Below, in pieces: positions 1,161 to 56,627 of a DNA stretch of 64,000 bases. The DNA comes from Escherichia phage vB_EcoM_JNE01: the sequence record OR670491, one strand, 5' to 3'. Position 1 is the stretch's first letter. Every line of letters begins with the position of its first letter. The translations under genes and the position numbers were made by a program. Under the pieces are notes generated by a model. The model saw only the letters and a list, made by a program, of their open reading frames with translations. It was not told the DNA's origin and did no database searches.

Positions 1161-1601
1161 ATGGAAAATATTGAAAATTTAAGACATGTAATGGACTTCA
1201 TTGGAAGTACTGAAGAAGATAGTGCATACGATGAAGTACTACTTACTTTTATTGAAAATAGTTTATTTCTATCTAGTTTAGCTCATAGTTGGCATTTACA
1301 ATGTCATTTCTATACTAAGCACTTACAGTTAGATGAACTATATAAAGACTTACCAGAGTACGTTGATGCATTCGTAGAAGGTATTATGAATAATCGCGGT
1401 GCTTTGCAGGTTGGTACTGGACATAGTTACAAATTCACCCCAGTGGAAGAATGTGTTCCTATTCTTGAAGAATATGTTGAGCAATGCAAAGCAATTCATG
1501 CTATGCTTACTGAAGCTGAAGACTATGGCAGTACTAACACACTAGAAGATATTATGAGTTTTGTTGAAGGAATGCTTTACAAACTCAAAGTTTTACAATA
1601 A
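1161..1601 (+). CDS. hypothetical protein (weak Dps/ferritin-like helix pattern)
   Basis: 146-aa ORF with AAGGAG SD; the His/Glu-rich helical stretch LAHSWHLQCHFYTKHLQLDELY is only loosely ferritin-like. Confidence 0.5.
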   Translation: MENIENLRHVMDFIGSTEEDSAYDEVLLTFIENSLFLSSLAHSWHLQCHFYTKHLQLDELYKDLPEYVDAFVEGIMNNRGALQVGTGHSYKFTPVEECVPILEEYVEQCKAIHAMLTEAEDYGSTNTLEDIMSFVEGMLYKLKVLQ

Positions 1602-8310: not shown

Positions 8311-8322
8311 GGTAGGTAAATT

Positions 8323-8649
8323 ATGCTAAATTTCGTTATCCAAGGTAATGTAGATGTTACTCCAGCAATTCATGACGCAATCCGCGATGAAGCAACAGTA
8401 CTAAGTAAATTTAGTGATGCTTCAGTACTGAATCTTGGTGTTCATCTGAAGAAAGAGCATAAAACACAGTACACTGTAACACTAACTTCTAATGGTAAGT
8501 CTGTTACTGCAAATGCAGCAGATTTATACAAAGCGATTAGTGATTCATTTGAAAAAATGGAAGTTGTACTTGGTAAAGACAAAAGCATTAAACTGCATCG
8601 TCGTAACCACCCAACACGTCCTCTGGACTTGACAGAAGACGAAGAGTAA
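8323..8649 (+). CDS. ribosome hibernation factor (HPF/RaiA/YfiA family)
   Basis: 108-aa protein collinear with E. coli YfiA/HPF as recalled: VTPAIHDAIRD, NLGVHLKKEHK, TVTLTSNGKSVTANAADLYKAISDSFEKMEVVLGK. Confidence 0.7.
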   Translation: MLNFVIQGNVDVTPAIHDAIRDEATVLSKFSDASVLNLGVHLKKEHKTQYTVTLTSNGKSVTANAADLYKAISDSFEKMEVVLGKDKSIKLHRRNHPTRPLDLTEDEE

Positions 8650-8660
8650 TTTATAATAAA

Positions 8661-8690
8661 GGGACAGTATATTTCTGTCCCTTTTCTTTT
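8661..8690 (+). terminator. intrinsic terminator (GGGACAG/CTGTCCC)
   Basis: Stem-loop followed by TTTTCTTTT. Confidence 0.65.
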
Positions 8691-8704
8691 TGGAGTTTTT
8701 TAAT

Positions 8705-24775: not shown

Positions 24776-25783
24776 ATGGCTAAAAAAATTAACGAAGCAC
24801 AAGTTAAAATCGATATCGCAGGTCTAGAATCTGAAGATTTAGAAACCCTATCACGTATGCTTGCACTAGCTGGTCAAGCTGAACGCCAAGCACCTACTGT
24901 TGCTCCAGTTCCTTCTATGGGGTCTATGACCCCATCTCTCTCCCCAATTGAACCACTAGATATGGATTCTTTAGGTGGTAGCGAAGAAGAAGTTGGTGTA
25001 GAAGTAGGGGCTGATGTTGCTGAACCAGTACAAGATCCACTAGATTCAGCAGTTGATAGTTTATCTGCTGATGTAGGTGATTTTGGTGCTGATGATGAAA
25101 TTGAAATGGATGCAGAAATTAGTGCTGATCCAGTAGGCGATGATTTCAGTGCAGAAGAAGAAGTTGAAGATATGGGTCTAGGTCTTGGTGGTCAACCGAC
25201 ACTAGAATCTGTTGAAGAAGAAGAGGAAGAAGAAGTAATAGAAGAAGAATTCGATTTCAGCCGTATGCTTTCCCTAGCTGGTATTGATGACGAAGACGAT
25301 TCCTATTCAGTTGAAGACAACCCAGATACTGAAGTTAAAATGTCAGAGAATCAATTCCTACCAGACCTATCTATTTCTGAAGAAGATGAGTCCAGTGATA
25401 CTACTTCATTTGGTCCTTATCCTTCTGAAGCTGACGCTGTTCGTGATGCACAACGCAAGACTAATGGTGTTGAAGGTGATAACTTTGTCGTTACTGCTAA
25501 AGGTAATCAGTTCTACTGGAGTCGTGTTGTTCAAGAAGATCTTGACAATGTTCCAGATCCAGAGTACTATGACAATGAAGGAAACGAGAACCGTGTTCAC
25601 AAGTTTGAACCAAAATTCCCTGGTACTGCGTTAGGTGATAACCCACTAAACGTAAATGAGAGTGAAGAAGATGAAGACTCTCTAGAAAGTAATCCAGAAC
25701 TAGAAGATGATTCTGATGAAGAAGTAGAAGATATCTTTGAAAGTCTCCAAGCTAAGTACGAGAAATTTCTTGGAGGGAAATAA
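24776..25783 (+). CDS. highly acidic protein (Asp/Glu-rich)
   Basis: 335 aa; long D/E runs such as SVEEEEEEEVIEEEF. Confidence 0.55.
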   Translation: MAKKINEAQVKIDIAGLESEDLETLSRMLALAGQAERQAPTVAPVPSMGSMTPSLSPIEPLDMDSLGGSEEEVGVEVGADVAEPVQDPLDSAVDSLSADVGDFGADDEIEMDAEISADPVGDDFSAEEEVEDMGLGLGGQPTLESVEEEEEEEVIEEEFDFSRMLSLAGIDDEDDSYSVEDNPDTEVKMSENQFLPDLSISEEDESSDTTSFGPYPSEADAVRDAQRKTNGVEGDNFVVTAKGNQFYWSRVVQEDLDNVPDPEYYDNEGNENRVHKFEPKFPGTALGDNPLNVNESEEDEDSLESNPELEDDSDEEVEDIFESLQAKYEKFLGGK

Positions 25784-25786
25784 AAA

Positions 25787-26161
25787 ATGGGATATAATTA
25801 CCGTGAACTCGTTGAAGCGTTAGATGAAATTACTTCACAGGAAGACGAAAGTTTTTCTGTGGAAACACCTTCAGATGATGTTGTAATCGATTTACTGAAA
25901 GATATCACCAAATGCCTTATCCACTGTGTGGATAAGGTTAAATCAGGTGAAGATGTTGACGAAATCGCTGAAAAATTACAAAAAGCTCGTGACATACTAG
26001 ATGATATGAAGTATAATGATGAAAGTACTGAAGCAGTTGAAGAAGACTGCTGTTACGGTACTGAAGACATGGCTCCTACAATTGGGAAAGATGGCGTCCA
26101 AGACTACAGTGTTAAAGATGCTCCTTCTTATGCAGCGAGACATGGTTTCGTAGGAATGTAA
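25787..26161 (+). CDS. hypothetical acidic protein
   Basis: 124-aa ORF. Confidence 0.5.
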   Translation: MGYNYRELVEALDEITSQEDESFSVETPSDDVVIDLLKDITKCLIHCVDKVKSGEDVDEIAEKLQKARDILDDMKYNDESTEAVEEDCCYGTEDMAPTIGKDGVQDYSVKDAPSYAARHGFVGM

Positions 26162-26164
26162 GTT

Positions 26165-26542
26165 ATGATGCCTACTCCATCGAACAGTACTGAATATCAG
26201 AATAATGTTCTCCACAAGATAAAGGAGATACATGAGTCAGACGCAGCTATAACAGACCGTATGCTTCTGATGTCAATTTTTGAAAATTTCAGAACTGGCG
26301 GTGGATTGAGATTGAGTAAGTACGGATTTAAATTGTGTGAAGAAAATAAACTTTACGAATTTACAAAAATCCCCTTGCGAAAAGATTTCAAAAGCTCTAT
26401 AATGTTTACATCGCTTGACAGGATATGTGCTGAACCTTACTATGTTGACGGTCAGTACATATACCTCGCAGACATAATGATTGTTACTGAGTTGACATTA
26501 TGCTGCGATGACTTTAAAATGTTATTCTCGAATCATCAGTGA
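26165..26542 (+). CDS. hypothetical protein
   Basis: 125-aa ORF. Confidence 0.45.
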   Translation: MMPTPSNSTEYQNNVLHKIKEIHESDAAITDRMLLMSIFENFRTGGGLRLSKYGFKLCEENKLYEFTKIPLRKDFKSSIMFTSLDRICAEPYYVDGQYIYLADIMIVTELTLCCDDFKMLFSNHQ

Positions 26543-26566
26543 TTCGAAAATAAAGAAAAAAAGTTC

Positions 26567-26594
26567 TTGACAAGTTAAAATGATGTGATATAAT
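26567..26594 (+). promoter_or_regulatory. sigma70 promoter P1 (TTGACA, 16-nt spacer, TGaTATAAT) with A-tract upstream and TGATG/CATCA inverted repeat across the -10
   Basis: Consensus hexamers read directly. Confidence 0.55.
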
Positions 26595-26658
26595 GAGCAT
26601 CACGAAGTAAGTTTTCAAAATCACATGATGTGAGATTGAAAAAAAAGAAAAAAAGTTG

Positions 26659-26686
26659 TTGACAAGGTTGAACGATGTGATATAAT
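26659..26686 (+). promoter_or_regulatory. sigma70 promoter P2 (TTGACA, 16-nt spacer, TGaTATAAT) with GTTGAAC/GTTCAAC inverted repeat flanking the -10
   Basis: Near-duplicate of P1 about 90 bp downstream. Confidence 0.55.
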
Positions 26687-26750
26687 GTTCAACATCAAGA
26701 CGACGAAGTGATTGACCTTTTTAAACACACGGATGATTCATGAAGTAACA

Positions 26751-26798
26751 AAGGAACTGATAAGTTAAAAATACTTTTAACACAGTTCCTTTACTTTT
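26751..26798 (+). terminator. leader stem-loop / possible attenuator (AAGGAACTG/CAGTTCCTT with nested GTTAAAA/TTTTAAC)
   Basis: 9-bp outer stem, U-rich 3' side, between P1/P2 and the proximal promoter. Confidence 0.4.
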
Positions 26799-26808
26799 GC
26801 CATCGGAT

Positions 26809-26817
26809 TGGTATAAT
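26809..26817 (+). promoter_or_regulatory. proximal extended -10 promoter (TGgTATAAT)
   Basis: About 40 nt upstream of ATG 26856. Confidence 0.4.
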
Positions 26818-26855
26818 AGAAATCTCAAATTTATCCAACTAAAAGGAAACTATAC

Positions 26856-28187
26856 ATGTCTACTCAAAACGCTGATATCCTGAACGTAAAACTGACTCCT
26901 AAGAAAGCTAAAGCAGCAATGGCACTGGCTGACATGATTCAAGACAGCCTGATGATTTGGGGTAGCCCTGGTATCGGTAAATCTGCAATTGCCCGTCAAT
27001 ACGCTGATGAGAACTACCCACTGCGTAAAGACAATCTGGCTAAGATTGAGTTCATGAAGCAGCAAATTGAAGTTGATGTAGAAAATGCTGACCAACTACG
27101 CCGTGAACTGGCAGCGTTCGAAGCTAAACTGATTGACCAAGACACCAACTTCATCGACTTCCGTTTGTCACAGATTGAACCAAGTGACCTACGTGGTATC
27201 CCAGTACCAGAGAAGATTTTCCTTGATATGGATGGTAAGCAACTGATTGAATCTGAACTGGAAACTGCACAAAACTACATCGCTGAAACAGCAGTAGTAT
27301 GGGCTGCACCAAAAGTACTGAAACTAAGCCCTGAATGGAAAGGTGTTATCCTGTTCGACGAAATTAACTCTGCAATGCCTATCGTGCAAGCAGCTTCTTA
27401 TCAGCTAATCCTCGACCGCTGTGTTGGTGAGATGAAGCTACCTAAGAAAGCTCTGATTCTGGCAGCAGGTAACCGTGAAACTGATGGCGGTGTAACCTTC
27501 TCTCTAGCTACACCACTGCGTGACCGTATGACTCACATCGAGATGGTTCCTTATCATCAAGATTGGATTAACGACTACGCAATTGCGAAACGTCTGAACC
27601 CAGCAACTGTTGCGTTCATCAACAACACTGGTGCTAAGTACTTCAACACCCTTAGCCCACAAGATCCTTCTCACAGTGGTGGTACTTCCCCACGTTCATG
27701 GGAAGCAGTAGCACGCTACGAAGACCTGAAGAAAGGTGGTCAGAGTATCGATAAAGAAGTGTTCCGTGCTCTAGTTGCAGGTCGTGTTGGTGAAGGTGTT
27801 GCTACCGAGTACATCGAATATGTAGAAAACGTATCTAAACTACCAGATACCATGTCTATCCTAAACGGTGAGATTAAAGAGATTGACGCTTCGCTAGATA
27901 TTTCTGCGAACTACTTCATCTCTCTGAACCTGGTCTATAAAATTATCGACCTGTACAATGAGAAGCAAGAACAACGTCTGGATGTGGCTGAATGGGGTAA
28001 ACTGTGCAACAACTTCATCATCTTCCTAGACCATAACTTCTCTGCAACTCAAGCAGAACTGGCAGTACTAGCGATTCGTACCATCACTCAGGCACGTGTA
28101 GCGATTTCGACTAAAGATGTACCAGCGTTCACTGACTTCATCAAGAAGTACACTGACCTAGTACGTAAAGCACGCTCCCTAAGCTAA
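26856..28187 (+). CDS. MoxR-type AAA+ ATPase (CobS/AAA_5-like) with a long insertion between Walker A and B
   Basis: Walker A GSPGIGKS, Walker B ILFDEIN; coiled-coil-like insert of about 120 aa between them. Confidence 0.75.
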   Translation: MSTQNADILNVKLTPKKAKAAMALADMIQDSLMIWGSPGIGKSAIARQYADENYPLRKDNLAKIEFMKQQIEVDVENADQLRRELAAFEAKLIDQDTNFIDFRLSQIEPSDLRGIPVPEKIFLDMDGKQLIESELETAQNYIAETAVVWAAPKVLKLSPEWKGVILFDEINSAMPIVQAASYQLILDRCVGEMKLPKKALILAAGNRETDGGVTFSLATPLRDRMTHIEMVPYHQDWINDYAIAKRLNPATVAFINNTGAKYFNTLSPQDPSHSGGTSPRSWEAVARYEDLKKGGQSIDKEVFRALVAGRVGEGVATEYIEYVENVSKLPDTMSILNGEIKEIDASLDISANYFISLNLVYKIIDLYNEKQEQRLDVAEWGKLCNNFIIFLDHNFSATQAELAVLAIRTITQARVAISTKDVPAFTDFIKKYTDLVRKARSLS

Positions 28188-28210
28188 TAATTCGAAATAG
28201 TGGTTGACAA

Positions 28211-28240
28211 GGAGGATACCAAATGGTATCCTTCTTTTAT
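28211..28240 (+). terminator. intrinsic terminator (GGATACC/GGTATCC)
   Basis: Stem-loop followed by TTCTTTT; a TTGACA hexamer lies just upstream. Confidence 0.55.
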
Positions 28241-28263
28241 CTTAACTAAACGAGGAATTTAAA

Positions 28264-29688
28264 ATGTCTCAAGAACAAAAATTCAAATTCGAAGAAGTTT
28301 CAGCTTCAGTACAGAAAGAGTGCCAAGACCGTCTTATTCTCGCACGTACATCTTTGATGCTTACTAAACCATTCTTTGGTGTACTGGCATCCCGTCTTCG
28401 TCCAGTACCTAACAACACATGGTGTCGTACTCTGGCAGTAGATGGTAAGCACCTTTTTTATAACGTAGAATTCGTAATGGGTATTCAAGACCCACTCAAG
28501 AAAGACGCATATGAAGCAGCAATGCGTGAAGCTCATCCAGAAATTACTGACGAGCAGTTGAAAGAAATGACCGAAGGCTTGACTGACGAAAACCTGATTG
28601 CAGTTATTTGTCATGAAATTCTTCACTGTGCATACGACCACTTCTTGCGTCGTGGTATGCGTGACCCACAACGTTACAACCGTGCTGCTGACTACGCGAT
28701 TAACCAGATTCTGGTTCGTGAAAAGATTGGTAAAATCCAGAATGGTTGGTTGTATGATCCAAAATATGACGGTATGACCGCAGAAGAGATCTACAACATT
28801 CTTCTAGAAGAAGATGAAAAACAAGAACAACAAGAAGGTGAAGGCGAAGGCCAACCACAACAAGGTGGTAGTGGTCAGGGTGAAGGGCGTTCACGTGGTA
28901 CATTTGGTGACCTTGCTGATGGTAAAGGTAAAGGCACTCCAAAAGGTACTACCATTGACCAACATGACGTTCCACAAGATGGTGATGGCGGTCAGTCTGA
29001 AGAGAAGAAACGTGAATATATGGACGATTTCAAAACCGCAATGATGAACGCGGCTCGTGCAGGTGGTACACCAGCAGAAATCGAACGTATGATCAATAAC
29101 TTCAAAGCACCAAAAATTGACTGGCGTGCAAAACTGCAACGTACTTTGCGTAGCTGGTTGAAATCTGACGCTACTTATCAGAACCCAAACCGTCGTTCAT
29201 GGGGTGCAGGTTTTGGTTCTAACGGTTCATTCTACGGGAACCCAATTTTCCCAGGCATGAAACCAGATGATGATATTGATATCGCAATTGCACTAGATGC
29301 ATCCGGTTCTATCTCTGAAGATATGCTCCGTGACTTCATCAGTGAAGTACTGGGTATCACTAAACAATTCAAACAGTTTAAGATTCGTATCATGACATTT
29401 GATACTCAAGTTTATACTGTAATGGATTACAAAACTGGTGAAGAACGTAAGATTCTTGAATATCCAGTTAAAGGTGGTGGCGGTACTGACTTTGAAGCAG
29501 TGTGGGTTCACATGAAACACGACAACTACAAGCCTAAACAACTTGTAATGTTTACAGATGGTGAGCCGTGGCAGTCATGGGGTGATCCTAACTACTGTAA
29601 GACACTGTTCGTTATTCACAGTAATCCAGAGAAAGTCGCACCATTCGGTGAAACCGTACACTACGAGTACGAAAATAAGAAAAAATAA
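28264..29688 (+). CDS. vWA-domain protein with N-terminal HExxH metallopeptidase-like domain (MoxR partner, CobT/DUF2201-like)
   Basis: HEILH motif; Gly-rich linker; MIDAS-type DASGS at the start of the C-terminal vWA fold. Confidence 0.75.
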   Translation: MSQEQKFKFEEVSASVQKECQDRLILARTSLMLTKPFFGVLASRLRPVPNNTWCRTLAVDGKHLFYNVEFVMGIQDPLKKDAYEAAMREAHPEITDEQLKEMTEGLTDENLIAVICHEILHCAYDHFLRRGMRDPQRYNRAADYAINQILVREKIGKIQNGWLYDPKYDGMTAEEIYNILLEEDEKQEQQEGEGEGQPQQGGSGQGEGRSRGTFGDLADGKGKGTPKGTTIDQHDVPQDGDGGQSEEKKREYMDDFKTAMMNAARAGGTPAEIERMINNFKAPKIDWRAKLQRTLRSWLKSDATYQNPNRRSWGAGFGSNGSFYGNPIFPGMKPDDDIDIAIALDASGSISEDMLRDFISEVLGITKQFKQFKIRIMTFDTQVYTVMDYKTGEERKILEYPVKGGGGTDFEAVWVHMKHDNYKPKQLVMFTDGEPWQSWGDPNYCKTLFVIHSNPEKVAPFGETVHYEYENKKK

Positions 29689-29701
29689 GTAAGTAAATAA
29701 A

Positions 29702-29732
29702 AGGGAATGGTGATGAGCCATTCCTTCTTATT
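29702..29732 (+). terminator. intrinsic terminator (GGAATGG/CCATTCC)
   Basis: Stem-loop followed by a T-rich run. Confidence 0.55.
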
Positions 29733-29736
29733 AAAA

Positions 29737-29764
29737 TGGACAATCACTGAAAGCGTGATATAAT
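29737..29764 (+). promoter_or_regulatory. sigma70-like promoter (TGGACA, 16-nt spacer, TGaTATAAT)
   Basis: Same architecture as P1/P2. Confidence 0.45.
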
Positions 29765-29798
29765 TAAAGTTGTAATCAATAACATGGAGAGTTATACA

Positions 29799-56599: not shown

Positions 56600-56627
56600 T
56601 TGACAACAGCAAATAATGTGATATAAT
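56600..56627 (+). promoter_or_regulatory. sigma70 promoter (TTGACA, 16-nt spacer, TGaTATAAT) with ATGTGAT/ATCACAT inverted repeat
   Basis: Same GTGATATAATG core as P1/P2; drives the ClpA-like gene. Confidence 0.5.

What the first reader, a model, noticed from the sequence alone, without database searches (positions are those of the whole stretch)
26545..26855. Tandem promoter region with operator-like inverted repeats and an attenuator-like hairpin
Two about 90-bp near-repeats each hold an A-tract, a perfect TTGACA, a 16-nt spacer and TGATATAAT, with inverted repeats (TGATG/CATCA, GTTGAAC/GTTCAAC) centred on the -10. The ATCACATGATGTGA palindrome lies between them, and a 9-bp hairpin with nested stem and U-rich tail sits before a third -10. 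This looks like a regulated early promoter cluster, possibly producing short leader RNAs, or an origin-like element.
Basis: seen in the sequence. Interest (0 to 1): 0.5.

Follow-up and report, generated by a model that had tools for sequence, protein, structure and literature searches.

The report
Duplicated early promoters with leader terminator
This 313-base gap in a giant E. coli phage holds two duplicated copies of a strong early promoter, then a conserved terminator hairpin and a small conserved RNA hairpin ahead of an ATPase gene: a real but mostly ordinary gene-control region, with one conserved RNA detail that has not been described.

Summary
The window is an Asteriusvirus, a RaK2-like jumbo phage, 99.8% identical to phage Turkey5. 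The 313-bp gap at 26543-26855 holds two perfect TTGACA-16-TGATATAAT promoters with A-tracts (P1, P2), a palindrome, a 10-bp hairpin with a nested stem and a U-tract, and a third promoter (P3).

P2 belongs to the phage's own early promoter family (TATAAT-N5-ACATCAAG). P1 and P2 come from a roughly 92-bp tandem duplication: phage SP27 has three copies and RaK2 has one.

Every RaK2-like genus keeps the order promoter, short leader, intrinsic terminator, ahead of an N4 gp24/gp25-like AAA ATPase and VWA gene pair. Compensatory base changes support the terminator stem. They also support a small hairpin just after it, whose loop carries an invariant GGA. This motif has no Rfam match.

The short inverted repeats around the -10 boxes are no more frequent than chance and are not conserved. 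Nothing suggests a replication origin.

Best reading: strong early promoters feed a leader that mostly stops at a leaky terminator, giving RNAs of about 105 and 200 nt. Read-through plus P3 make the ATPase mRNA. The GGA sites resemble CsrA binding sites, which is speculative. No transcript data exist for this clade. This is a new member of a known kind, of modest interest.

The parts
26546..26563 (+). A-tract 1 (GAAAATAAAGAAAAAAAG), UP-element-like, upstream of P1
   Evidence: The 23-mer covering the A-tract and -35 occurs only here and at P2. Identity within Asteriusvirus is only 0.60.
26567..26594 (+). P1: TTGACA, 16-nt spacer, extended -10 TGATATAAT. Predicted start at about 26599-26602.
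   Evidence: Matches 12 of 12 consensus positions plus TG. The -35 is invariant in 5 Asteriusvirus sequences; the -10 is TACAAT in G17 and PBECO4. Less conserved (0.79) than P2.
26612..26642 (+). Imperfect palindrome TTTTCAAAATCACAT-G-ATGTGAGATTGAAAA. Would form a hairpin in P1 transcripts. Paralogue of the P2 leader segment TTTTTAAACACACGGATGATTCATG.
   Evidence: I4, 87% complementary. Forms a hairpin in the fold of the P1 transcript. Aligns with the P2 leader in the unit alignment. Identity 0.88 within Asteriusvirus, with no compensatory changes.
26638..26655 (+). A-tract 2 (GAAAAAAAAGAAAAAAAG), UP-element-like, upstream of P2
26659..26686 (+). P2: TTGACA, 16-nt spacer, extended -10 TGATATAAT
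   Evidence: Matches 12 of 12 consensus positions plus TG. The core GATGTGATATAATG is invariant in Asteriusvirus. An orthologous promoter is present in all RaK2-like genera.
26692..26701 (+). ACATCAAGAC: start-site and initial transcribed motif shared with the phage's early promoters. Predicted P2 start at about 26692-26694.
   Evidence: TTGAC-N-spacer-TATAAT-N3-9-A[TC][CTA]AAG occurs 9 times in the first 50 kb of Turkey5 (the early region) and only at P2 in the window.
26726..26737 (+). Box 1: ACACGGATGATT, an ANGGA motif in the leader 16 nt 5' of the terminator stem
   Evidence: An ANGGA lies within 30 nt 5' of the stem in 20 of 25 related leaders, against about 0.10 expected per window by composition. 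The box 1 region has 0.90 identity within Asteriusvirus.
26750..26792 (+). Terminator hairpin: 10-bp stem AAAGGAACTG/CAGTTCCTTT with a nested 7-bp stem (26764-26770 with 26775-26781)
   Evidence: -14.6 kcal/mol. Compensatory changes at 3 core stem pairs across 19 sequences. Annotated as a terminator in the G17 record and listed as Torf215 in the CBB paper.
26790..26799 (+). U-rich tail TTTACTTTTG. Its first bases also close the stem and form the P3 -35 (TTTACT).
   Evidence: Invariant in Asteriusvirus. A tail of the form (C)TTCTCTTTTG is conserved in all genera.
26800..26811 (+). Small hairpin CCA-TCGGAT-TGG with GGA (26805-26807) in the loop (box 2)
   Evidence: GGA is invariant in 19 sequences. 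The flanking pairs covary (AU, CG, UA), with 84% of cells paired against 67.5% in shuffles, 0 of 500 shuffles reaching this. RNAalifold does not predict this hairpin. In this window the loop reads UCGGAU, so the A of ANGGA is missing.
26809..26817 (+). P3 extended -10 TGGTATAAT. The -35 TTTACT at 26790-26795 overlaps the terminator tail.
   Evidence: 10 of 12 consensus positions. TATAAT is invariant in Asteriusvirus but not conserved in other genera. It has the same terminator-then-promoter layout as other gaps in the window.
26843..26858 (+). Shine-Dalgarno AAGGAA (GGA at 26845-26847) and the ATG of the ATPase gene (26856)
   Evidence: Identity 0.93.
26856..28187 (+). AAA+ (MoxR-like) ATPase, N4 gp24-like: the gene served by this control region
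   Evidence: Pfam AAA and AAA_3. Record notes give homology to N4 gp24.
28264..29688 (+). DUF2201_N metallopeptidase-like plus VWA-like protein, N4 gp25-like
   Evidence: Pfam PF13203 at 6.6e-36 and PF09967 at 1.3e-20.

Best explanation
This gap is the transcription control region of the AAA-ATPase/VWA operon of a RaK2-like jumbo phage.

Two tandem copies of a consensus sigma-70 early promoter (P1, P2), each with an UP-like A-tract, were produced by a roughly 92-bp tandem duplication. They start transcription at about 26600 and 26693. Both transcripts run into a conserved intrinsic terminator (26750-26799). Most are expected to stop there as leader RNAs of about 200 and 105 nt. The fraction that reads through, plus transcripts from the weaker P3 that overlaps the terminator tail, make the ATPase mRNA. 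The same terminator also ends the late structural-gene transcripts arriving from upstream.

The mRNA leader carries two conserved ANGGA elements: box 1 before the terminator, and box 2 in the loop of a small covarying hairpin after it. A GGA-containing Shine-Dalgarno follows. I infer that an RNA-binding factor, most plausibly host CsrA, uses these to tune translation or stability.

Shown in silico: the promoter motifs and their family membership, the duplication, the terminator and small hairpin with covariation, and conservation across genera.

Inferred: promoter activity, termination efficiency, any attenuation, and factor binding.
For: - Promoters: 12 of 12 consensus positions plus TG, 3 exact matches in 64 kb against 0.00 expected. 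P2 shares TATAAT-N5-ACATCAAG(AC) with 9 promoters of the early region of the same phage.
- Transcription machinery: these phages use host RNA polymerase with a phage RpoD-like sigma factor, and sigma-70-type early promoters with UP-like elements were described in CBB.
- Duplication: the units align through the leader. SP27 has a third 94-bp unit and RaK2/Muenster have one.
- Terminator: present at the same place in all 25 related leaders, -10 to -18 kcal/mol, with 4-7 U in the 10-nt tail. RNAalifold predicts the stem independently, with 3 pairs keeping pairing through double changes. On the named structure, 87% of cells are paired against 77.5% in shuffles, with 30 double-change cells against 11, and 0 of 500 shuffles reach this. 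Further stem variants GCACAGC/GCTGTGC and GGCTCC/GGAGCC occur in metagenome relatives. Others have annotated it as a terminator.
- Read-through: most genera have no recognisable promoter between the terminator and the ATG, so the ATPase must be transcribed by read-through.
- Small hairpin: invariant GGA with covarying flanks.
- GGA elements: ANGGA is present at box 1 and box 2 in 20 of 25 leaders each, with box 2 always 9-12 nt after the stem. In EJP2 the early promoter has moved downstream of the terminator, yet its leader keeps two ANGGA elements. This ties them to the mRNA leader.
- CsrA resemblance: known CsrA sites are GGA in the loops of short hairpins (ANGGAN, RUACARGGAUGU), with a hairpin site working together with a Shine-Dalgarno site in glgC.
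- Constraint map: terminator, T-tract, P3 -10, box 1, P2 and the Shine-Dalgarno are more conserved than the flanking coding sequence.
Against: - No transcript 5' or 3' ends or RNA-seq data exist for any member of this clade in the library searched. Promoter use, timing and termination efficiency are all untested.
- The window's terminator tail has only 4 U in 10 nt, so efficiency could be anywhere from low to high.
- No alternative (antiterminator) fold is conserved. The box 1 to UUAUCC pairing seen in the fold is absent outside Asteriusvirus.
- RNAalifold does not predict the small hairpin, and its covariation rests on related sequences.
- In this very window the box 2 loop is UCGGAU, not ANGGAN.
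- XaC1-like phages lack both GGA boxes.
- In several genera the Shine-Dalgarno has no GGA.
- The promoter-before-terminator order could be a by-product of the ancestral promoter overlapping the upstream stop codon, rather than a regulatory design.
Confidence: 0.6

Rival explanations
1. The unit from promoter to terminator is itself a gene for a small non-coding RNA. It would be about 105 nt from P2 and 200 nt from P1, and about 55-60 nt in Mimasvirus and Eneladusvirus. The RNA would act in trans, by base-pairing or by titrating a GGA-binding protein such as CsrA. The ATPase would be served mainly by P3 or by incidental read-through.
For: It has its own strong promoter and a canonical terminator. 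This order is conserved in every RaK2-like genus examined, over ATPase identities down to 52-57%. In CBB and GAP32 the terminator is canonical, with 6 U in the 10-nt tail. A conserved ANGGA lies in the single-stranded 5' part. Tandem duplication, and triplication in SP27, would raise RNA dosage. The predicted P2-to-terminator RNA folds better than shuffles (z = -2.6).
Against: Apart from the start-site motif, box 1 and the terminator, the transcribed sequence and its length are poorly conserved: 26-110 nt from the -10 box to the stem, and 0.64 identity for the mid-leader. In EJP2 the strong promoter lies after the terminator and the remaining promoter-to-terminator unit has lost box 1. The second GGA element lies beyond the terminator, so it belongs to the read-through mRNA. 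One or two GGA sites make a weak sponge. No Rfam family matches. There are no expression data.
Confidence: 0.17
2. The layout is passive, with no regulation. The hairpin is simply the terminator of the upstream late structural operon. Ancestrally the promoter overlaps that operon's stop codon, so it has to sit upstream of the terminator. The promoter duplications are neutral slippage between A-tracts. The GGA motifs and small palindrome are incidental or belong to something else.
For: In Mimasvirus, Eneladusvirus and XaC1-like phages the -35-like TGAAACG includes the TGA stop codon of the upstream gene. Elsewhere in the window, gaps have the order terminator then promoter, as seen here for the terminator and P3. 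Copy number varies from 1 to 3 between close relatives. The CBB authors listed the hairpin only as the terminator of orf215.
Against: Box 1, the small hairpin loop and the spacing of box 2 (9-12 nt after the stem) are conserved across genera, beyond what a bare terminator needs. These elements are more conserved than the flanking coding sequence. Most genera have no promoter after the terminator, so read-through is functionally required.
Confidence: 0.15
3. The promoters are controlled by an operator. A phage or host DNA-binding dimer binds the ATGTGA/TCACAT half-sites at the P1 -10, the central palindrome and the P2 -10, and represses or activates P1 and P2.
For: ATGTGA/TCACAT-like half-sites occur about six times in roughly 120 bp. 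GATGTG(A)/(T)CACATC flanks the P2 -10 in four other Asteriusvirus genomes. The central palindrome is conserved at 0.88.
Against: Inverted-repeat counts are at chance level. GTTGAAC/GTTCAAC is specific to this genome, and a 1-nt insertion breaks the GATGTGA/TCACATC repeat here. Each arm is explained independently: TGTGATATAAT is an extended -10 found at unrelated promoters at 56619 and in RaK2, Munch and EJP2, and CATC belongs to the family-wide ACATCAAG start motif that occurs without any GATG partner. The palindrome is a duplication-derived paralogue of the leader. The order TCACA-N3-TGTGA is the reverse of a CRP site (my own knowledge of the CRP consensus).
Confidence: 0.06
4. This is a replication origin of the T4 oriF/oriG type. 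A promoter-driven short transcript would form an R-loop in an AT-rich unwinding region and prime DNA synthesis.
For: The gap is AT-rich with A-tracts, repeats and a promoter-driven short RNA. T4-type origins are a promoter plus a downstream unwinding element (my own knowledge). There is one 7-of-9 DnaA-box-like TTATCCAAC at 26832-26840.
Against: There is no GC-skew turn here; the turn at 32-34 kb coincides with the flip in gene orientation. There are no iterons beyond the promoter duplication. All conserved blocks are explained as promoter, terminator or leader. The element is tied to one gene pair across genera.
Confidence: 0.02

Closest known systems
Tandem strong early promoters of coliphages (T7 A1/A2/A3; T5 early promoters such as P25/P26 with A-rich upstream regions). 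From my own knowledge, not tested here.
   Same: Several near-consensus host sigma-70 promoters lie in tandem, a short distance apart, with A/T-rich upstream (UP-like) DNA. A lytic phage that depends on host RNA polymerase uses them for very high early initiation.
   Different: Here the cluster is not at the genome end or in the early region. It sits between a late structural module and one ATPase/VWA operon. The tandem state is a recent lineage-specific duplication with 1, 2 or 3 copies. A terminator follows within about 60 nt of the proximal start site.
RpoD-like early promoters with an UP-like element, and the 'TGAAACG' divergent promoter class, of Pectobacterium phage CBB and GAP32 (PMC5259590)
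   Same: Same phage clade. Asteriusvirus P1 and P2 match the RpoD-like-plus-UP class. The orthologous promoter in CBB, GAP32, Serratia phage BF and Yersinia phage fHe-Yen9-04 matches the TGAAACG-N13-TGGTATAAT class listed in that paper's Table S6.
   Different: The promoter at this locus is not in the CBB promoter tables. Only the hairpin is listed, as terminator Torf215. The promoter-before-terminator arrangement, its conservation and the GGA hairpin were not described.
Lambda PR'-tR' (the 6S RNA unit) and other promoter-proximal terminators or attenuators. From my own knowledge.
   Same: A strong promoter whose transcripts mostly end at an intrinsic terminator 100-200 nt downstream, giving an abundant short RNA. 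Downstream genes depend on read-through.
   Different: No Q-like antiterminator, Q-binding element or promoter-proximal pause signal was identified. No conserved alternative RNA fold was found. In Asteriusvirus an additional promoter (P3) bypasses the terminator.
CsrA/RsmA target leaders such as E. coli glgC (review PMC7652899)
   Same: GGA sits in the loop of a short (3-5 bp) hairpin, with an ANGGAN-like loop, in a 5' leader. There is at least one further GGA site, and in Asteriusvirus and Alcyoneusvirus a GGA-containing Shine-Dalgarno. Window box 1, ACACGGAUGA, matches 8 of 10 positions of ACARGGAUGU.
   Different: Binding is untested. In glgC the hairpin is just upstream of the Shine-Dalgarno; here it is about 40 nt upstream. 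This window's own box 2 loop lacks the A. Several genera have no GGA in the Shine-Dalgarno. XaC1-like phages lack the boxes.
Rfam RNA families
   Same: None. There was no match at E <= 1 in 25500-28000 on either strand.
   Different: The conserved terminator plus GGA-loop hairpin leader of RaK2-like phages is not a described family. A covariance model built here finds it only at this locus in 114 kb of this phage. It finds it in all RaK2-like relatives, but in none of about 70 N4-like marine phage loci that encode the homologous ATPase.

Membership tests
Sigma-70 (host RNA polymerase) promoter, early class of RaK2-like phages | -35 TTGACA and -10 TATAAT with a 16-18-nt spacer | tested here: met
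   P1 and P2 match 12 of 12 positions with a 16-nt spacer. The exact extended pattern occurs 3 times against 0.00 expected.
Sigma-70 (host RNA polymerase) promoter, early class of RaK2-like phages | Extended -10 (TGn) and an A/T-rich UP-like element upstream of the -35 | tested here: met
   TGATATAAT at both promoters. 15-16 A in the 25 nt upstream. From -46 to -38 of P2 the sequence is AAAAAAAGT, against the proximal UP subsite AAAAAARNR (consensus recalled from my own knowledge).
Sigma-70 (host RNA polymerase) promoter, early class of RaK2-like phages | Family-specific start-site motif TATAAT-N5-6-ACATCAAG, shared with promoters of the early gene region | tested here: met
   P2 has it, along with 9 promoters in Turkey5 positions 1-50 kb, and it occurs nowhere else in the window. 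P1 has only a degenerate CATCACGAAG.
Sigma-70 (host RNA polymerase) promoter, early class of RaK2-like phages | Mapped transcription start, and early timing during infection | not testable with these tools
   No transcriptome or end-mapping data for this clade in the paper library.
Intrinsic (Rho-independent) terminator | G+C-containing stem-loop directly followed by a U-rich tract | tested here: met
   Core GGAACUG/CAGUUCC followed by UUUACUUUUG; hairpin energy -14.6 kcal/mol. The simple scanner missed it because the loop is 23 nt. ARNOLD calls it a terminator in G17 and CBB.
Intrinsic (Rho-independent) terminator | Stem maintained by compensatory substitutions in relatives | tested here: met
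   Three stem pairs switch between GC or CG and AU on both sides at once. 0 of 500 shuffles reach the observed pairing or covariation. Further variants appear.
Intrinsic (Rho-independent) terminator | Measured termination of transcripts in vitro or in vivo | not testable with these tools
   Needs Term-seq, Northern blots or in vitro transcription.
Transcription attenuator (regulated leader terminator) | Terminator located between the promoter and the gene it controls | tested here: met
   The order promoter, terminator, ATPase holds in all 25 related leaders except the second promoter of EJP2.
Transcription attenuator (regulated leader terminator) | Mutually exclusive antiterminator structure, leader peptide, or defined ligand or protein sensor | tested here: not met
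   No conserved alternative pairing: the box 1 to UUAUCC pairing occurs only in Asteriusvirus. The candidate mini-ORFs are not conserved (by inspection sequences). I therefore do not file it as a classical attenuator, only as a leaky leader terminator.
CsrA/RsmA binding site | GGA, ideally ANGGAN, in the loop of a short hairpin | tested here: inconclusive
   The small hairpin has an invariant GGA and a covarying 3-5-bp stem. ANGGA is present at box 2 in 20 of 25 leaders, but the window itself reads UCGGAU. RNAalifold does not predict the stem.
CsrA/RsmA binding site | Two or more sites within bridging distance, one overlapping the Shine-Dalgarno | tested here: inconclusive
   Box 1, box 2 and the Shine-Dalgarno AAGGAA are present in Asteriusvirus and Alcyoneusvirus. 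The Shine-Dalgarno lacks GGA in Mimasvirus and Eneladusvirus.
CsrA/RsmA binding site | Demonstrated binding or CsrA-dependent expression | not testable with these tools
   Needs gel-shift, CLIP or reporter assays in csrA mutants. No csrA homologue is encoded by RaK2-like phages, so the factor would be the host's.
Operator (DNA site for a dimeric regulator) | Inverted repeat in excess of chance and conserved in relatives at the same position | tested here: not met
   Counts are at chance. GTTGAAC/GTTCAAC is not conserved. GATGTGA/TCACATC is broken in this genome and its arms are explained by promoter motifs. Only the central palindrome is conserved.
Replication origin | Skew inflection, iterons or initiator boxes, or an unwinding element independent of gene-expression signals | tested here: not met
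   No skew turn at 26.6 kb. The only repeats are the promoter units. There is a single 7-of-9 DnaA-like box.
Small regulatory RNA gene | Own promoter and own terminator, conserved as a unit | tested here: met
Small regulatory RNA gene | Conserved seed or body, and evidence of a stable transcript | tested here: inconclusive
   Only box 1 and the start motif are conserved. Length varies about four-fold. No expression data.

The most novel reading that the evidence does not exclude
The tandem, near-perfect early promoters exist to mass-produce the short terminated RNA. This conserved RNA, with ANGGA in its single-stranded 5' part, would be a phage-encoded decoy or regulator that engages the host CsrA system or another GGA-binding factor early in infection. 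The GGA-loop hairpin in the read-through mRNA would make the ATPase/VWA operon respond to the same factor. That would be a previously undescribed class of RNA in jumbo phages aimed at a host global post-transcriptional regulator.
Probability: 0.08. Interest if true: 0.65.

Novelty: new member of a known kind. Interest (0 to 1): 0.33.

Why it matters
Practically, it gives annotators of RaK2-like jumbo phages (Asteriusvirus, Alcyoneusvirus, Mimasvirus, Eneladusvirus and relatives) a defined control region. Current records leave it blank or mark it only as 'terminator'. The region comprises:
- an early-class promoter with a recognisable start-site signature;
- a promoter-proximal terminator conserved across genera;
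- a small GGA-loop hairpin.

It also shows promoter copy number (1, 2 or 3) and promoter class (TGAAACG-type against TTGACA plus UP) changing at one orthologous locus. This is a neat case of regulatory evolution in phages that rely on host RNA polymerase.

If the GGA elements do bind CsrA or a phage factor, this would be an accessible example of a jumbo phage wiring a conserved operon, the N4 gp24/gp25-like ATPase and VWA pair of unknown function, into host post-transcriptional control. P1 and P2 are also candidates for very strong compact promoters for E. coli.

Tried and rejected
- **Rfam scan** of 25500-28000 at E <= 1: no family.
- **Leader peptide.** The mini-ORFs ATG-AAG-TAA and ATGATTCAT... 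in the leader are not conserved, for example in A4, RaK2, GAP32 and Munch (inspection). Rejected.
- **Long-range pairing** of box 1 (GGAUGA) with UUAUCC upstream of the Shine-Dalgarno, seen in the minimum-energy fold: absent outside Asteriusvirus. Not pursued.
- **PA5oct ncRNA003**, an RNA-seq-supported ncRNA in a distant relative: it lies at a non-homologous locus, so it gives no experimental support.
- **Phage-encoded CsrA.** A tblastn search with E. coli CsrA against 50,697 phage records found 88 records, none from Escherichia or Klebsiella jumbo phages.
- **N4-like marine phages** with the homologous ATPase (about 70 metagenome loci): the covariance model finds no motif there.
- **Other copies in this phage.** The model finds only generic terminators elsewhere in the window and in the first 50 kb of Turkey5.
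- **MAFFT on the natural sequences** mis-registered the 5' arm because loop lengths differ. I realigned with loops trimmed to 4 nt. This affects only loop columns, but it is a manual step.
- **Tandem Repeats Finder** did not report the 92-bp duplication. It was seen with the repeat finder and with pairwise alignment.
- **P3-like or late (TATAAATA-like) promoters** after the terminator in other genera: none convincing (inspection).
- **The small palindrome as a -35-type element** of a downstream promoter: the spacings do not fit.
- **A CRP site at the palindrome:** the half-sites are in the wrong order.
Full report
**Source and context.** The window is from an Asteriusvirus, one of the RaK2-like jumbo myoviruses. 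Positions 26400-27000 are 99.8% identical to Escherichia phage Turkey5 (PQ471516) and 82-87% identical to 121Q, PBECO4, G17, EC.P1, A4 and others. The finding fills the 313-bp gap 26543-26855. Upstream is a 125-aa gene that ends a plus-strand run of tail and virion genes: sheath, tube, and proteins annotated as virion structural in RaK2, 121Q and CBB. Downstream is a 443-aa AAA (MoxR-like) ATPase, then a DUF2201_N metallopeptidase-like/VWA protein. Several records note that both resemble N4 gp24 and gp25. Apart from an unannotated stretch at 915-1608, this is the largest gap in the first 32 kb of the window.

**Observation.**
- P1 is TTGACA (26567-26572), a 16-nt spacer, and TGATATAAT (26586-26594).
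- P2 is the same arrangement at 26659-26664 and 26678-26686.
- Both are preceded by A-tracts.
- The two units repeat at a 92-nt spacing: 62 nt at 82% identity without gaps.
- The palindrome spans 26612-26642.
- The hairpin has a 10-bp stem (26750-26759 with 26783-26792) enclosing a nested 7-bp stem, followed by ACTTTTG.
- P3 is TTTACT-16-TGGTATAAT (26790-26817).

The exact pattern TTGACA-N13-TGN-TATAAT occurs three times in 64 kb against none in 100 shuffles. The shared 23-mer covering the A-tract and -35 occurs twice against 0.00 expected. In contrast, the number of short inverted repeats in the gap is what dinucleotide shuffles give (P = 0.13-0.30).

**What the promoters are.** RaK2-like phages have no RNA polymerase of their own. 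They use the host core enzyme, with a phage RpoD-like sigma factor and a gp55-like late factor. Three promoter classes were proposed for CBB: RpoD-like with an UP-like element (early), TGAAACG-N13-TGnTATAAT, and a T4-late-like ATAAATA.

The first 50 kb of Turkey5 is a classical early region of about 100 small genes. It holds some 25 near-consensus TTGACA/TATAAT promoters. Nine of them share TATAAT-N5-ACATCAAG, often extended to ACATCAAGACGA.... P2 has exactly this signature (TATAATGTTCAACATCAAGACGACG) and is the only such site in the window. So P2, and by descent P1, belongs to the phage's early promoter family. The predicted starts are about 26692-26694 for P2 and 26599-26602 for P1.

**The tandem state is a duplication.** Unit 1 (26545-26637) aligns with unit 2 (26638-26745) beyond the promoter core. 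The alignment runs through ACGAAGT and TTTTCAAAATCAC/TTTTTAAACACAC into ATGAT. The palindrome is therefore the diverged paralogue of the P2 leader segment that carries box 1. SP27 has a third, nearly identical 94-bp unit with the junction ...AAACACACGG|AAAAAAAA.... RaK2, Muenster and K64-1 have one promoter. Within Asteriusvirus, P2 (0.88) is better conserved than P1 (0.79).

**The inverted repeats.** GTTGAAC/GTTCAAC is specific to this genome. Four other Asteriusvirus genomes instead have GATGTG(A)-N8-10-(T)CACATC around the P2 -10, and a 1-nt insertion breaks that repeat here. Both arms have separate explanations. TGTGATATAAT is an extended -10 also seen at unrelated promoters, at 56619 in the window and in RaK2, Munch and EJP2. 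CATC is part of ACATCAAG, which early promoters carry without any GATG partner. I therefore reject the operator reading for the repeats that span the -10 boxes. The central palindrome is conserved (0.88, against 0.74-0.80 for the flanking coding sequence), but only five distinct sequences are available and there are no compensatory changes. Its role, whether an RNA hairpin in P1 transcripts or a DNA site, stays open.

**The hairpin is a conserved terminator placed after the promoter.** I collected the orthologous gap from 25 distinct relatives. These came from GenBank phages, IMG/VR and metagenomes, and cover Asteriusvirus, Alcyoneusvirus, Munch-like phages, Mimasvirus, Eneladusvirus and XaC1-like phages, with ATPase identity down to 52-57%. 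All have the same layout: a promoter with an extended -10, a leader of 26-110 nt, a hairpin, and a tail like TTCTCTTTTG.

In Mimasvirus, Eneladusvirus and XaC1-like phages the promoter is of the TGAAACG class, and its TGA is the stop codon of the upstream gene. In Munch-like phages the -35 element is TGGGACA. In Alcyoneusvirus and Asteriusvirus it is TTGACA plus A-tracts.

The stem changes by paired substitutions: GGAAC/GTTCC, GGCAC/GTGCC, GACAC/GTGTC, AGCAC/GTGCT, GCACAGC/GCTGTGC and GGCTCC/GGAGCC. On a 19-sequence alignment with loops trimmed to 4 nt, RNAalifold predicts the stem on its own, with three pairs kept through double changes. On the structure I named, 87% of cells pair against 77.5% in shuffles, with 30 double-change cells against 11. 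None of 500 shuffles reaches this, and all slid registers score far lower. Hairpin energies are -10 to -18 kcal/mol, and the tails have 4-7 U in 10 nt. The G17 record and the CBB paper already call it a terminator. Neither notes that a promoter lies upstream of it.

Elsewhere in the window the usual order in a gap is terminator then promoter. Here the terminator-to-P3 part follows that rule, and P1 and P2 are the extra element. Outside Asteriusvirus I see no promoter between the terminator and the ATG, so there the ATPase must be transcribed by read-through.

**A second conserved element.** Nine to twelve nt after the stem there is a small hairpin or palindrome with an invariant GGA at its centre. 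Examples are CAAAUGGAUUUG, CAGAUGGAUCUG, CCAAACGGAUUUGG, GCUUAUGGAUAAGC and GCUUACGGAAAAGC; in the window it is CCAUCGGAUUGG. The flanks covary (AU, CG, UA): 84% paired against 67.5% in shuffles, 13 double-change cells against 4.8, with 0 of 500 shuffles reaching this. An invariant, asymmetric centre with variable symmetric flanks fits an RNA hairpin with a sequence-specific loop better than a DNA operator.

The caveats are real. RNAalifold does not predict this weak stem. The sequences are related to one another. A co-evolving dimeric DNA-binding protein could mimic the covariation.

A similar ANGGA (box 1; in the window ACACGGAUGA at 26726-26735) lies 3-16 nt before the terminator in 20 of 25 leaders, and box 2 is ANGGA in 20 of 25. 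By composition, about 0.10 per window would be expected. XaC1-like phages lack both boxes.

EJP2 is informative. Its early-type promoter sits after the terminator, yet its leader still has AAAGGAC and CCAACGGAUUUUGG. This ties the GGA elements to the mRNA leader rather than to the terminated RNA.

The full motif has no Rfam match. A covariance model built from it finds it only at this locus in 114 kb of this phage. It finds it in all RaK2-like relatives, and in none of about 70 N4-like marine loci encoding the homologous ATPase.

**Mechanism.** I commit to the following. P1 and P2 are strong early sigma-70 promoters. Their transcripts meet the terminator after about 200 and 105 nt, and most stop there. 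Read-through, joined in Asteriusvirus by P3, yields the ATPase/VWA mRNA. The same terminator stops late transcripts coming from the structural genes. The predicted leader RNAs fold better than shuffles (z = -2.6 and -3.6).

The GGA elements look like CsrA/RsmA sites. Known sites have GGA in short hairpin loops (ANGGAN), the SELEX consensus RUACARGGAUGU, and in glgC a hairpin site cooperating with a Shine-Dalgarno site. The window's Shine-Dalgarno is AAGGAA. RaK2-like phages encode no CsrA homologue, so the factor would be the host's.

This last step is a lead from resemblance, not a result. I give about 0.25-0.3 to CsrA involvement in particular, and 0.6 to the overall architecture and mode of action.

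**Rivals.**
- The promoter-to-terminator unit as a trans-acting small RNA: 0.17.
- A passive layout with no regulation: 0.15.
- Operator control: 0.06.
- A T4-type origin: 0.02.

The GC skew turns at 32-34 kb, where gene orientation flips, not here.

**Comparison and novelty.** The closest known things are:
- tandem early promoters of T7 and T5;
- the RpoD-like and TGAAACG promoter classes of CBB and GAP32;
- promoter-proximal terminators such as lambda PR'-tR';
- CsrA-controlled leaders.

The promoters and the terminator pass their sequence-level membership tests. A classical attenuator is not established, because no alternative fold or sensor was found. CsrA-site membership is inconclusive. 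The operator and origin tests are not met.

In kind it is ordinary: a phage early promoter cluster with a leader terminator. The new elements are the clade-wide promoter-before-terminator arrangement, the GGA-loop hairpin, and the turnover in promoter copy number and class at one locus. No transcript mapping exists for this clade, so all activity claims remain predictions.

Noticed in passing
window 8629-8684: A perfect TTGACA-17-TATAAT promoter (8629-8657) directly abuts a strong terminator hairpin (AAAGGGACAG...CTGTCCCTTT plus TCTTTTT, 8658-8684). The predicted start would fall inside the 5' arm, so the terminator would act only on upstream transcripts. This is a compact overlap of promoter and terminator.
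   Followed up: no
window 28188-28263: Between the ATPase and VWA genes there is a TTGACA followed by the hairpin GGAGGATACC-AAAT-GGTATCCTTC and TTTTATC. The Muenster and Munch records annotate a terminator at the equivalent place. The two genes may therefore not be simply co-transcribed.
   Followed up: no
window 1161-1601: A 146-aa ORF lies in a 694-bp stretch that has no annotation in the Turkey5 record, next to a gene annotated 'DpsA'. It is probably a missed gene.
   Followed up: partly
L036 (Turkey5 1-50000), about 7-19 kb: The early region holds about 100 small genes. At least 8 promoters share TTGACA-16/17-(T/C)ATAAT-N5-ACATCAAG. Several leaders then begin with a G-rich stem-loop (GGGGAGAA...TTCTCCCC) followed by CTAACA(A)AGAGAGA. 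This looks like a repeated 5'-leader module of the early transcripts.
   Followed up: partly
L012-L015, L010, L009 against window 26543-26690: The promoter at this orthologous locus belongs to different classes in different genera. In Mimasvirus and Eneladusvirus it is TGAAACG-N13-TGGTATAAT, overlapping the upstream stop codon. In Munch-like phages the -35 is TGGGACA. In Alcyoneusvirus and Asteriusvirus it is TTGACA plus A-tracts. The expression timing of the ATPase operon may therefore differ between genera.
   Followed up: partly
L008 (phage SP27) 1693-2102; L011 (phage EJP2) 1696-2013: SP27 carries a third, nearly identical 94-bp promoter unit. EJP2 has a rearranged gap: an extended -10, then the terminator, then a new hairpin, then an UP plus TTGACA-17-TATAAT promoter, then the GGA hairpin and the gene.
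   Followed up: partly
window 26832-26840: TTATCCAAC matches the DnaA box TTATCCACA at 7 of 9 positions and is conserved in Asteriusvirus as part of TTTTATCCAAC just upstream of the Shine-Dalgarno. It is a single copy, and I treated it as chance or as part of the 5' UTR.
   Followed up: no
window 8322-13447: The record annotates a cluster of translation and RNA-related genes: ribosome hibernation promoting factor, CCA tRNA nucleotidyltransferase, a Nudix-type 'm7GpppN-mRNA hydrolase', and peptidyl-tRNA hydrolase. These are annotations as deposited, not checked here.
   Followed up: no
window 10916-11025, 29689-29798, 14299-14373: A second promoter type recurs in gaps after terminators: (T/A)TGGACAA-N12-TGATATAAT at 10922 and 29737, and extended -10-only promoters at 14338. 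These are probably the Asteriusvirus counterparts of the CBB 'TGAAACG' class.
   Followed up: no
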